Source of the DNA: a virus
Strand: one strand, 5' to 3'
Virus record (IMG/VR): IMGVR_UViG_3300042904_000308
Coordinates: 32,001 to 96,000 of that record
DNA length: 64,000 bases
Below the pieces are notes generated by a model, which saw nothing but the letters and a program-made list of their open reading frames with translations, did no database searches and had not been told where the DNA came from. This document shows positions 46,031 to 47,627 of the stretch, in pieces; positions within the stretch are counted from its first letter, which is position 1, and each line of letters opens with the position of its first letter. The translations under genes and the position numbers were made by a program.

Positions 46031-46150
46031 GGTGGAGCTGGGGGGAATCGAACCCCCGTCCAGACCACGAGCCACCCTTATAGAGTGGATGGGCTTGTTT
46101 CTGTGCGCGTTCTCGCCCGTCCCGTACCCTGTCGATACCATGACAGCCCC
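46031..46150 (-). ncRNA. ssrA: Miniature tmRNA (tRNA-like domain with 120-nt total length)
   Basis: 5' GGGGCUG-UCAUGGUAUCGAC; 3' GAC-GGGGG-UUCGAUU-CCCCC-CAGCUCC-ACC; G3:U70 pair, A73 discriminator, no D-stem or anticodon arm. Confidence 0.85.
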
Positions 46151-47627
46151 AGGTGAGGCCCAGGGTCGGGCCTCGATGCTTACTTGACTTCCGTCGTGAC
46201 ACTGCGAACGGTGAGTCCCTTGAACCAGTCCTTGAGGTCATCGTCGTGCTGGAGAAAACTGGCAAAATCTCTCAGCAGTTCGTCGAAGGGATACGGCTCA
46301 TCCTCGGCCATACCCCACGCCCCCACAGCCTTGCGTTTGTTGTAGGTGACGTTCAGCGTGATCGTTGCGCGTGCCATCGTGTTACCCTCCTACTCGCAGA
46401 TGCAGAACGACTTCATGTTCCCACAGAACAGGCACTCGTCGGGATGAGACTCGGCCAGAATGATGCACGGCACGTCGTAGAAATACTGCGCCAGCACCTT
46501 GACCTCGTCCAGCCCGTCGTACGCGGCCTGAGCCTCCTCCTTCGTCTCGAACGTCGTTACCTTCTCGTCAGTGAGAACCGCGTACCACATTACGTCCATC
46601 GTGTGACCTCCTCGTGTGAATCGCCAGTCCGTTTCTCCCTACCCTTGCAGGGGTACCTTCGTGAGCGAGTACCGCTCCAAGAGAGAGTCGCGATATTCGT
46701 CAATTTCTTCGTCTGTCAGGTCGTCGTAGACCTCGACCTCCTCAGTGACCCCCTCTCCAATCTCAGCGTTCATTGCCGCCACAGCTGCCGCCTCGTTCGC
46801 GTACACCCCCACGACATGCACAATGTTCTCGTCCTGGTTCTCGTACATCAGCACCACTACATCCATCGTGCGACCTCCCGCCTGCTTGTGCAGGCACGTT
46901 CTACCCAACGCCTGAGCCTCTCGCTAGGCATCAGGCAGGGCCAGCCGCTGTCATTCAGCCGCCCTGCTAGGTGCCTACCTCTTACCCTCTACCCTTATCG
47001 GTTGTATGGGGCATCCATGAAGATGACCTGATGGACGCGATTGCAGGCCTGGCACCTGTAATGCCCCTGCCAGTCAGAATCTTCTGGCGGTCCATCGGGC
47101 ATGTCGGGATCATCCCCGTACCAGTCGAAGGTGTGTGGGTCCGCCGCGTAAAACCCGCTACCCTCGGCAGTGTTCCCGCACTGGCAGCGGTAGCCATTCA
47201 TCTGCTGCGCGTAGATTCTCTCCATTGTACCGTGTCTCCTCTCGGTGAAATGCTGCCCCTACCCTTAGGGCAGTTCTTCCCAGTTCTCTTGTTCGATCAT
47301 GCTCAGTCCCGACGCCGCATCCTCAGCCAGCACGTCGGCTGCGATCTTTCGGAACAGCATGTCGGCCTGGGCACCTTCCCGCGTCACTCGCGCACGCACG
47401 TTGTGAACGGCATAGCTGACGTGCAGCTGTTCCGCCACACCCTCCGCGCAGGTTGCCTCTAGCGATTCACGCACCCCAACGCAGGCGTCACGGAGCGACT
47501 CGCCTCCCTTCACGACCCCGACGATCAAACGATCCAGTTCCCACAGGTATCCCGTCACTGCTACCTGATCCATGACTACCTCCTCGAAACGCTGGCGGGA
47601 GCCACGATTGACCCCCGCCCCTGAGCC

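What the first reader, a model, noticed from the sequence alone, without database searches (positions are those of the whole stretch)
46031..46175. 120-nt miniature tmRNA: intact alanyl-tRNA-like domain, pseudoknot ring deleted
Seen (minus strand): GGGGCUG UCAUGGUAUCGAC AGGGUACGGG [~49 nt] CUCGUGGUCU GGAC GGGGG UUCGAUU CCCCC CAGCUCC ACC. It has a 7-bp acceptor stem with G3:U70 and A73, a stemless D-loop ending UCGAC, a P2-like helix, the GAC linker and a canonical T-arm. The insert holds two small hairpins. One frame (...ACA GAA ACA AGC CCA UCC ACU CUA UAA) stops at the loop of the second hairpin and has no Ala-Ala degron. The 3' end reads ACCG, so CCA must be completed enzymatically. A GAGGCCC/GGGCCTC hairpin abuts the 5' end. 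Known: bacterial tmRNAs are typically ~350 nt, and these elements are the AlaRS, SmpB and EF-Tu determinants; mRNA-less forms are known mainly from some protist mitochondria. Inference: an early-expressed decoy that titrates SmpB to disable trans-translation, or a minimal rescue RNA that frees stalled ribosomes without tagging phage proteins for degradation. This is the best candidate for an undescribed system.
Basis: partly seen in the sequence, partly recalled or inferred. Interest (0 to 1): 0.92.

Follow-up and report, generated by a model that had tools for sequence, protein, structure and literature searches.

The report
Phage mini-tmRNA, long form
An uncultured phage carries a real 118-121-base miniature of the bacterial ribosome-rescue RNA (tmRNA) that keeps the alanine-accepting end and a copy of the "restart" site but no usable tag message; the kind is already known from mycobacteriophage DS6A, and it probably competes with the host's own rescue RNA.

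Summary
Window 46030-46150 (minus strand) matches Rfam tmRNA end to end at 72.5 bits (cut-off 47), with 292 model positions replaced by 40 nt. It has a G3:U70 acceptor stem, a stemless D-loop, a P2 helix, a GGAC linker and a T-arm.

It is not an undescribed system. The 83-nt "TLD-only" tmRNA of mycobacteriophage DS6A is in print, and so is the SmpB-titration idea with its E. coli inhibition result.

Pattern scans found at least 120 phage contigs with ~77-nt forms and about 60 with 102-132-nt forms. None lay between 133 and 163 nt, so these are selected size classes, not decay. This scan had already flagged such minis on other DNA.

New here:
- The long form has P2 enclosing hairpin A and hairpin B.
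- The hairpin A loop matches, in register, the resume-codon site of full-length tmRNAs (A-rich -4..-1, then GCN or GGC).
- In-frame stops are no commoner than out of frame (15, 18 and 13 of 37). The window's frame has none.

Best reading: an alanine-charged RNA that binds SmpB, competes with host tmRNA and cannot tag. Tag-free rescue is the main rival. No close relative of this phage and no expression data could be obtained.

The parts
46030..46150 (-). Whole mini-tmRNA gene. The mature RNA is 118 nt up to the discriminator A at 46033; the encoded trailer is CCG, so the last A of CCA must be added.
   Evidence: Rfam RF00023 72.5 bits, model 1-374. Covariance model R1 scores it 105.5 bits.
46144..46150 (-). 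Acceptor stem, 5' strand GGGGCUG (G3 at 46148).
   Evidence: Pairs 7/7 with 46034-46040. P1 is paired in 98.9% of cells across 54 minis.
46131..46143 (-). Stemless D-loop UCAUGGUAUCGAC (GG..UCGAC, the tmRNA hallmark).
   Evidence: Sequence. Aligned to the Rfam consensus GGaUUCGAC.
46121..46130 (-). P2 helix, 5' strand AGGGUACGGG.
   Evidence: Constrained fold. The outer P2 is paired in 85% of cells, and all 5 of its pairs show changes on both sides.
46091..46118 (-). Hairpin A: stem GGGC/GCCC around the 20-nt loop GAGAACGCGCACAGAAACAA.
   Evidence: Constrained folds. At least 13 different stem sequences enclose the same loop motif in other minis.
46102..46112 (-). Resume-site-like motif GAAC|GCG|CACA. 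The -4..-1 nucleotides are 46112-46109 and the resume-like codon GCG is 46108-46106.
   Evidence: A weight matrix of this motif ranks 1st, 1st, 1st, 2nd, 4th, 9th and 9th of about 350 positions, exactly at -4 of the ARAGORN resume codon, in 7 full-length phage tmRNAs.
46072..46088 (-). Hairpin B: CCACUCU-AUA-AGGGUGG. It starts 20 nt after the resume-like codon and may correspond to tmRNA helix 5. It holds the only stop triplet, UAA at 46078-46080.
   Evidence: RNAalifold finds it on its own, with 3-6 double-sided changes per pair. It is paired in 75.7% of cells.
46062..46071 (-). P2 helix, 3' strand CUCGUGGUCU.
46041..46061 (-). GGAC linker and T-arm GGGGG-UUCGAUU-CCCCC.
   Evidence: The T-arm is paired in 100% of cells.
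46033..46040 (-). Acceptor stem, 3' strand CAGCUCC (U70 at 46036) plus the discriminator A (46033).
   Evidence: U70 and A73 were present in 9 of 9 true minis found by a pattern that did not fix the 3' end.
46155..46174 (-). Upstream hairpin GAGGCCC-GACCCU-GGGCCUC. It lies between the stop codon of the preceding ORF (46180) and the mini. It has no U-run, so a processing or stability role is only a guess.
   Evidence: -15.6 kcal/mol, z -2.5. It is not a class feature: the mean z of the 40 nt upstream of 146 minis is -0.63.

Best explanation
Window 46030-46150 (minus strand) is a functional gene for a miniature tmRNA with no coding sequence. It is the long form (102-132 nt) of the 'TLD-only' kind first noted in mycobacteriophage DS6A.

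**Shown:**
- It has all the sequence determinants of the tmRNA tRNA-like domain.
- It has a P2 helix and a three-way inner domain. The hairpin A loop of that domain copies the tmRNA resume site.
- It has no closed tag frame and no pseudoknots.
- It lies in a 175-nt gap inside a dense minus-strand operon and has no promoter of its own.

**Inferred:**
- It is cut out of the polycistronic transcript: RNase P at the 5' end, trimming and CCA completion at the 3' end.
- Host AlaRS charges it with alanine.
- Host SmpB binds it through the tRNA-like domain, and probably also through the four purine-rich bases before the resume-like GCG.
- EF-Tu delivers it to stalled ribosomes.
- There it competes with host tmRNA. 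Because it cannot supply a terminated tag message, it uncouples or blocks tagging: a decoy or inhibitor of trans-translation during infection.
For: **Identity**
- Rfam 72.5 bits, end to end.
- Other minis score 56-80 bits.

**A selected class, not decay**
- At least 120 viral contigs carry 72-92-nt forms.
- About 12 viral and about 52 metagenome loci carry 102-132-nt forms with perfect acceptor stems.
- No locus has a 133-163-nt form.
- The phages involved are unrelated and share no partner gene.

**Structure**
- 85% of cells are paired, against 61.7% in shuffles.
- The covariation score is 0.429, against 0.116 in shuffles (0 of 500 reach it) and at most 0.10 with slid partners.

**Alanine identity**
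- U70 and A73 are present in 9 of 9 minis where the search pattern did not force them.

**Resume-site look-alike**
- The match is in register.
- The codon at that place is GCN or GGC in 29 of 29 well-anchored minis.

**No tag frame**
- In-frame stops occur in 15 of 37 minis, against 18 and 13 of 37 in the other two frames.
- The window's frame has no stop.
- At least 9 long minis have no stop at all downstream of the motif.

**Precedent**
[quoted passage not shown] **Reliance on host factors**
- The 115-kb record holds no SmpB, ArfB/RF-1 domain, Pth or CCA-adding enzyme.
Against: - There is no expression, charging or binding evidence for this RNA.
- No close relative of this phage was found, so conservation of this particular copy is untested.
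- The published inhibition did not depend on chargeability. Yet alanine identity is strictly kept here, which fits an RNA that works on the ribosome better than a pure SmpB sponge.
- A conserved resume-like codon is not needed by a simple decoy.
- Hairpin A is only moderately supported in the fitted alignment (66% of cells paired). In my own test its stems average 5.07 bp, against 3.98 bp in cross-swapped controls.
- The search patterns fixed the D-loop, the T-loop and G1-G4, so conservation of those parts cannot be read from my sample.
Confidence: 0.5

Rival explanations
1. Tag-free rescue RNA. Ala-mini-tmRNA with SmpB enters stalled ribosomes and accepts the nascent chain. The peptidyl-RNA is then released by drop-off and host Pth, or by a release factor. 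Ribosomes are freed, for example on phage mRNAs cut by host defence RNases, and no degron is added. The same has been proposed for the frame-less mitochondrial tmRNAs.
For: - Alanine identity is strictly kept where the pattern did not force it: 9 of 9 minis.
- The elements that position tmRNA at the first translocation are all kept: the tRNA-like domain, P2, the -4..-1 plus resume-like codon, and a hairpin 17-23 nt downstream that resembles helix 5.
- Frame-less tmRNAs persist together with SmpB in mitochondria and some plastids (PMC11915505).
Against: - The only experiment on this kind of RNA reports inhibition of tmRNA, not rescue.
- The phage record encodes no Pth or ArfB-like releasing factor.
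- No release route for peptidyl-TLD is shown.
Confidence: 0.27
2. Working short-tag tmRNA. Translation resumes inside the hairpin A loop and adds a short peptide. In the window this would be the +1 frame ...GAA ACA AGC CCA UCC ACU CUA UAA noted by the first reader, or the GCG frame.
For: - The resume-like site is in register with real tmRNAs.
- Two-residue tags exist in some bacteria (PMC11915505).
- Some minis have very short in-frame ORFs, such as G*, GHV* and GLVT*.
Against: - In-frame stops are no more frequent than in the other frames: 15, 18 and 13 of 37.
- The window's resume frame runs through the T-arm without a stop, and its UAA is out of frame.
- The stop varies UAA/UGA/CAA within one close family.
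- At least 9 minis have no stop downstream of the motif.
- The window has 1 stop triplet where about 3 would be expected from composition (my estimate).
Confidence: 0.06
3. Decaying remnant. This would be either a captured host or phage tmRNA with an internal deletion, or an attP-type fragment of ssrA kept for integration.
For: - The record has a tyrosine integrase.
- ssrA is a common integration site (PMC11915505).
- A distant phage that shares the 414-aa neighbour gene has a full-length tmRNA 0.8 kb from that gene.
Against: - Both halves of the tRNA-like domain, P2 and both inner hairpins are intact and pair.
- Sizes fall in two discrete classes, with none at 133-163 nt.
- The inner motif and stems are conserved and covary in unrelated phages.
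- The integrase is 28 kb away.
- The full-length tmRNA in the distant phage has a different acceptor stem and lies on the other side of the shared gene.
Confidence: 0.06
4. Bait or counter-measure aimed at something other than host trans-translation. One example is host defence proteins with SmpB-like domains (CoCoNuT type II/III-A), or another protein that binds tRNA-like RNA.
For: CoCoNuT systems carry SmpB-like SPB domains predicted to bind tmRNA (PMC11090510). The minis are sporadic accessory genes in early regions, as anti-defence genes often are.
Against: This is pure inference. No co-occurrence or host information is available.
Confidence: 0.06

Closest known systems
'TLD-only' / CDS-less tmRNA of Mycobacterium phage DS6A (JN698994 28478-28560; tmRNA Website tmID 11587; Hudson, Lau and Williams 2014; Mao et al. 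2009)
   Same: - Phage-borne and in standard (not permuted) order.
- Intact acceptor stem with G3:U70, stemless D-loop, P2 and T-arm.
- No pseudoknots and no tag frame.
- The inner segment also starts with an A-rich run followed by a GC-rich motif (ACGAAAACCGCAC), seen.
- My model R1 finds it at 51 bits.
   Different: - DS6A is 83 nt, and its P2 directly closes a 20-nt loop.
- The window's RNA is 118-121 nt, with a three-way inner domain: hairpin A carrying the resume-like loop, plus hairpin B.
- DS6A scores 43.2 bits in Rfam, below the cut-off; the window scores 72.5 bits.
Standard bacterial and phage tmRNA (Rfam RF00023), e.g. phages Phabba, Calle_1, Anedea
   Same: The tRNA-like domain, P2 and the resume-site sequence pattern (A-rich -4..-1, then GCN) are shared, and a hairpin lies about 20 nt downstream, where helix 5 would be.
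   Different: - The window's RNA has no PK1-PK4 and no reading frame closed by a stop.
- It is 118 nt against 267-420 nt.
- ARAGORN does not call it.
Frame-less mitochondrial (jakobid, oomycete) and ~65-bp plastid tmRNAs (PMC11915505, PMC3590771)
   Same: These are reduced tmRNAs with no tag frame that persist under selection. They are presumed to act with SmpB.
   Different: They are organellar and of different descent. They have a dedicated imported SmpB. They are reported as little more than the tRNA-like domain, and no resume-like loop is described for them.
Two-piece (permuted) tmRNAs, e.g. the unannotated one in Pseudomonas phage SM1
   Same: The 31 nt of T-arm plus acceptor 3' strand are identical to those of SM1.
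   Different: The window's gene is not permuted. No second piece was found in the record.

Membership tests
tmRNA (Rfam RF00023) | Score above the curated Rfam cut-off | tested here: met
   72.5 bits against a cut-off of 47, model 1-374.
tmRNA (Rfam RF00023) | Alanine-type acceptor stem (G3:U70, A73), stemless D-loop GG..UCGAC, T-arm and P2 helix | tested here: met
tmRNA (Rfam RF00023) | mRNA-like domain: a resume codon followed by an in-frame tag ORF ending in a stop | tested here: not met
   A resume-like site is present, but its frame has no stop. Across the class there is no excess of in-frame stops. ARAGORN finds no tag.
tmRNA (Rfam RF00023) | Pseudoknot PK1 (and usually PK2-4) | tested here: not met
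   Only 49 nt lie inside P2, and they fold as two plain hairpins. Rfam skips 292 model positions.
CDS-less / TLD-only phage tmRNA (DS6A kind) | Intact tRNA-like domain, no tag frame, encoded by a phage | tested here: met
   Model R1 joins DS6A and the window in one model.
CDS-less / TLD-only phage tmRNA (DS6A kind) | 'Little more than the TLD' (about 65-85 nt) | tested here: not met
   The RNA is 118-121 nt and has two extra conserved hairpins. It belongs to the rarer 102-132-nt size class.
CDS-less / TLD-only phage tmRNA (DS6A kind) | Inhibits host tmRNA, and binds SmpB | not testable with these tools
   Known only from the literature, for a DS6A-like construct.
Two-piece permuted tmRNA (RF04321, RF01849-51) | 3' acceptor piece lies upstream of the 5' piece, with a separate coding piece | tested here: not met
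   The order is standard. The best RF04321 match is 27.7 bits on the same T-arm. Nothing else was found in the window.
tRNA-Ala | Cloverleaf with D stem and anticodon arm | tested here: not met
   ARAGORN finds no tRNA. The best Rfam match in the clan is tmRNA, not tRNA.
attP fragment of ssrA | Only the 3' part of ssrA, next to the integrase gene | tested here: not met
   Both halves are present and pair. The integrase is 28 kb away.

The most novel reading that the evidence does not exclude
The long-form mini-tmRNA is a purpose-built RNA that keeps exactly the parts of tmRNA that touch SmpB and the decoding centre up to the first translocation. Those parts are the tRNA-like domain, a short P2, the four bases plus resume codon shown in the hairpin A loop, and a hairpin like helix 5. 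If so, it engages stalled ribosomes and either locks them or clears them without tagging. This would be a widespread, so far uncharacterised phage strategy against host trans-translation, or against defence proteins with SmpB-like domains.
Probability: 0.3. Interest if true: 0.8.

Novelty: new variant of a known kind. Interest (0 to 1): 0.55.

Why it matters
Trans-translation is the main ribosome-rescue path in bacteria and a drug target. A natural, compact RNA that competes with tmRNA for SmpB and stalled ribosomes would be a ready-made inhibitor and a probe.

The literature I could search lists only one frame-less phage tmRNA, that of DS6A. Here such RNAs turn up in well over 150 unrelated phage contigs, in two size classes.

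The long class keeps the resume site without a message. That makes a specific question testable: what do the resume site and helix 5 do for SmpB and ribosome engagement, apart from coding?

It also matters for annotation. Rfam calls these RNAs 'tmRNA' without flagging that they cannot tag, and ARAGORN misses them altogether.

Tried and rejected
**Close relatives of this phage: none found.**
- Megablast of 24 kb against cultured phages gave no match.
- The 2.2-kb region gave only a 39-nt T-arm match.
- PolA is at most 33% identical to that of any cultured phage.
- The 414-aa neighbour gene has homologs of 27-39% identity in 329 viral loci. Of the 80 loci fetched, none has a mini within 10 kb.
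- Of 55 whole records searched, 3 have full-length tmRNAs and none has a mini.
- tblastx of those loci against the genome gave only scattered hits, which I did not take as synteny.

**Host clue: none.**
- A scan of 185,579 species genomes for the window's 5' tRNA-like-domain pattern gave only two chance hits inside coding sequence.

**Relatives of this particular mini: none.**
- A pattern with its acceptor stem found nothing in metagenomes.
- An inner-motif pattern found only L022, which is 40% or less identical inside P2.

**Partner protein: none.**
- Clustering 4,217 neighbour ORFs from 195 loci gave no cluster in more than 12 loci.

**Flanking signals.**
- No promoter-like site lies within 44500-48000. 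The one terminator-like match there (plus strand, 44540-44558) is on the opposite strand, 1.5 kb from the gene.
- An upstream hairpin is not a class feature.

**Covariation of hairpin A.**
- My first wide-window stem test could not discriminate.
- The covariance model built on a MAFFT seed kept hairpin A and the inner P2 out of register. Those two helices are therefore supported mainly by constrained folds and by a narrower swap test.

**Tools and papers that were unavailable.**
- Mao et al. 2009 is not held and is cited only through two later papers.
I re-ran it with the motif taken from alignment A2.
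Full report
**What is there.**

On the minus strand, window 46150-46030 reads as a one-piece, unpermuted tmRNA from which almost everything between the two strands of helix P2 is missing. 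Rfam's tmRNA model (RF00023) matches it from model position 1 to 374 at 72.5 bits (cut-off 47, E 2.9e-26), replacing 292 model positions by 40 nt. ARAGORN calls nothing here or anywhere in the 115,172-base virus record that holds the window.

The anatomy, from a fold constrained only at the acceptor stem, D-loop and T-arm:
- acceptor stem GGGGCUG/CAGCUCC with G3:U70, and discriminator A;
- stemless D-loop UCAUGGUAUCGAC;
- P2, AGGgUACGGG/CUCGUGgUCU;
- hairpin A, GGGC[GAGAACGCGCACAGAAACAA]GCCC;
- hairpin B, CCACUCU[AUA]AGGGUGG;
- GGAC linker;
- T-arm GGGGG-UUCGAUU-CCCCC;
- 3' end ACCG.

**Setting.**

The record is an uncultivated phage: IMG/VR, CheckV 80% complete, 58% G+C. It has ribonucleotide reductase, family A DNA polymerase, an AEP primase, a DnaB helicase and a dNMP kinase on the minus strand of the window. 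A tyrosine integrase lies 28 kb away, outside the window.

The mini-tmRNA fills a 175-nt gap between two small minus-strand ORFs (46180-46377 and 45804-46004). It ends 25 nt before the next GTG start, which has a GAGGAGG ribosome-binding site. No promoter-like site lies within 44500-48000. The one terminator-like match there is on the plus strand, 1.5 kb from the gene. The RNA must therefore be cut out of a long transcript.

The record encodes none of the following:
- SmpB;
- an RF-1/ArfB domain;
- peptidyl-tRNA hydrolase;
- a CCA-adding enzyme;
- a tRNA;
- a second or permuted tmRNA piece.

Whatever the RNA does, it does with host factors.

**It is a member of a class, not a wreck.**

A pattern that fixes only G1-G4, GG..UCGAC and the T-loop found 20 viral contigs with 60-90 nt in between. 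Nine are clear minis (L007 is less clear), and all nine have U70 and A73 although the pattern did not ask for them. The stricter pattern found:
- 63 metagenome contigs, about 52 with perfect 7-bp acceptor stems, 102-132 nt long;
- none with 90-120 nt in between.

Rfam scores both size classes at 56-80 bits. The contigs are unrelated to the window's phage. They share no neighbouring protein: the largest ORF cluster covers 12 of 195 loci. Two discrete sizes in many unrelated phages argue against random decay.

**It is already known in kind.**

Hudson, Lau and Williams (2014, PMC4131195) list 'Mycobacterium phage DS6A (TLD only)'. [quoted passage not shown] It mentions no wider phage class.

I located the DS6A gene at JN698994 28478-28560: 83 nt, 43.2 bits.

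This scan had also flagged such minis on other DNA. One was a 105-nt 'long form' whose extra bases were left unexplained.

**What the extra bases are.**

In the long class, constrained folds show a recurring plan: P2 encloses hairpin A, and usually a second small hairpin either after it (hairpin B, as here) or before it.

Hairpin A has a 4-7-bp stem of quite different sequence from one phage to the next. Examples are GGGC/GCCC, GAGC/GCUC, GACCC/GGGUC, GCCC/GGGC, CCGCG/CGCGG, GGAGAU/GUCUCC, GCACAC/GUGUGC, GCAGC/GCUGC, CACGG/CCGUG, GGAC/GUCC and GAUCAGG/CCUGGUU. These stems close a 14-28-nt unpaired loop with a shared motif, roughly A-rich, then G(C/G)N, then CA.

On a model-fitted alignment of 54 minis, the whole structure gives these figures:

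| Measure | Observed | Shuffled | Slid partners |
|---|---|---|---|
| Cells paired | 85% | 61.7% | 46-56% |
| Covariation score | 0.429 | 0.116 (0 of 500 reach it) | at most 0.10 |

Per helix, the share of cells paired is:

| Helix | Cells paired |
|---|---|
| P1 | 98.9% |
| Outer P2 | 85% |
| Hairpin B | 75.7% |
| Hairpin A | 66% |
| T-arm | 100% |

The last figure for hairpin A is depressed by a MAFFT seed that put hairpin A one column out of register in several rows. In a separate swap test, stems flanking the motif average 5.07 bp, against 3.98 bp when the 3' flank comes from another mini. Stems of 5 bp or more occur in 67% against 30%. RNAalifold finds hairpin B unaided, with 3-6 double-sided changes per pair.

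**The loop is a copy of the resume site.**

I built a weight matrix of the 11-nt loop motif from the aligned minis and slid it along seven full-length phage tmRNAs whose tag frames ARAGORN calls. [quoted passage not shown]

| Phage or record | Rank of the -4 window | Positions scanned |
|---|---|---|
| SM1 | 1 | 410 |
| Anedea | 2 | 256 |
| Phabba | 1 | 386 |
| Yut2 | 9 | 363 |
| Calle_1 | 1 | 349 |
| IMG/VR record (L295) | 9 | 342 |
| IMG/VR record (L297) | 4 | 351 |

Matrix positions 5-7 therefore line up with the resume codon. In the minis those positions are GCC, GCA, GCG or GGC in 29 of 29 well-anchored cases. In the window they are GCG at 46108-46106, preceded by GAAC.

Cryo-EM work shows that SmpB (Tyr55, Tyr24) stacks on exactly the four bases before the resume codon, with a purine favoured at -4. 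It also shows that helix 5, downstream, touches the SmpB tail and the mRNA entrance (PMC8363625). Hairpin B starts 17-23 nt after the resume-like codon in the minis that have one (read), and 20 nt after it in the window. That is about where helix 5 would be. This correspondence is my inference.

The short class and DS6A also open their P2-closed loop with an A-rich run followed by GCC. The best matrix hit lies 6-7 nt after UCGAC in 37 of 59 short minis, though with weaker scores.

**But there is no message.**

Reading from the resume-like codon, a stop is met before the T-arm in 15 of 37 long minis. The figures for the +1 and +2 frames are 18 and 13.
- The window's frame (GCG CAC AGA AAC ...) runs through hairpin B, P2 and the T-arm with no stop.
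- Its single UAA is in the +1 frame.
- Two minis have no stop triplet anywhere after the D-loop, and at least seven more have none downstream of the motif.
- In one close family, the triplet at one position varies UAA/UGA/CAA.

**How it most likely works.**

Shown:
- the determinants for AlaRS (G3:U70, A73);
- the tmRNA-type D-loop, GGAC linker and T-arm that make up the SmpB- and EF-Tu-binding domain;
- a resume-site look-alike;
- no closed frame and no pseudoknots.

Inferred:
- The RNA is processed from the operon transcript, completed to CCA and charged.
- SmpB binds it, possibly at two places.
- It is brought to stalled ribosomes.
- There it competes with host tmRNA and cannot deliver a tag.

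I put about 0.5 on this competitor or decoy reading, because it is the only one with an experiment behind it.

The strict retention of alanine identity and of the resume-like codon is not needed by a mere SmpB sponge. It keeps tag-free rescue (about 0.27) well alive. The other readings get about 0.06 each: a short-tag tmRNA, decay or an attP remnant, and a bait for defence proteins with SmpB-like domains (PMC11090510).

**Limits.**

- I found no close relative of this phage, so this copy's own conservation is untested.
- A distant phage that shares the 414-aa neighbour gene has a full-length tmRNA (tag AKTELAMAA) 0.8 kb from that gene. It lies on the other side of the gene and has a different acceptor stem.
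- The host is unknown.
- My patterns fix parts of the tRNA-like domain, so the counts are lower bounds of one sequence flavour. They say nothing about conservation of the fixed bases.

**Verdict.**

This is a real gene: a new long-form variant of a known but barely studied kind, the CDS-less phage tmRNA. The part not in the literature I could search is that the long form, and more weakly the short form, keeps the resume site in a hairpin loop while having no reading frame.

Noticed in passing
L001 1172-1592 (-) = Pseudomonas phage SM1 KU245542 about 54.0-54.4 kb; also PaMx31, vB_PaeS_FBPa45, UF_RH6, PA_L9: These cultured Pseudomonas phages carry a full-length permuted (two-piece) tmRNA: RF04321 118.6 bits, tag ANDTSFDVRLAA. 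The records do not annotate it.
   Followed up: partly
L310 (Xanthomonas phage JGB6), L311 (Rb1), L312 (BUDD), L309 79-481 (Mycobacterium phage SirSheldon): More unannotated full-length tmRNAs in cultured phages: permuted in the three Xanthomonas phages and standard in SirSheldon. In JGB6 a 'hypothetical protein' CDS is called across it.
   Followed up: partly
L080 7476-7605 (-) and 5298-5427 (-) (JACCDP010994077.1): One metagenome contig carries two long-form mini-tmRNAs about 2 kb apart (67.0 and 63.9 bits with model R1).
   Followed up: no
G000:C1:106018-107106 (-), outside the window (L308): The phage record encodes a tyrosine integrase (Pfam PF00589, 109 bits), although its replication gene set looks lytic. 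DS6A, the known carrier of a mini-tmRNA, also has one.
   Followed up: no
window 47628-48872 (-): This 414-aa protein has no Pfam match and has invariant Cys/His columns (C114, H116, C117, C143). It has homologs in 329 viral loci, many on phages of 60-560 kb. Its function is unknown.
   Followed up: partly
L295 1503-1855 (-) = IMGVR_UViG_3300028840_005768 11796-12150: A distant phage carries a full-length tmRNA (tag AKTELAMAA) only 0.8 kb from its homolog of the 414-aa gene. The same early neighbourhood thus holds a full tmRNA in one phage and a mini in another.
   Followed up: partly
L210 268-534 (Streptomyces phage Anedea): This annotated phage tmRNA is only 267 nt yet keeps PK1 and an 11-residue ...ALAA tag. 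It is a functional-looking form intermediate in size between the standard tmRNA and the minis.
   Followed up: no
L032, L035, L057, L058, L069, L072, L082: Seven metagenome contigs match the mini-tmRNA pattern, but the acceptor stem pairs in only 6 of 7 positions after shifting the 5' start, and all share one conserved GC-rich sequence. It looks like a conserved protein-coding stretch (not checked), so I set them aside as a false-positive family for pattern searches.
   Followed up: no
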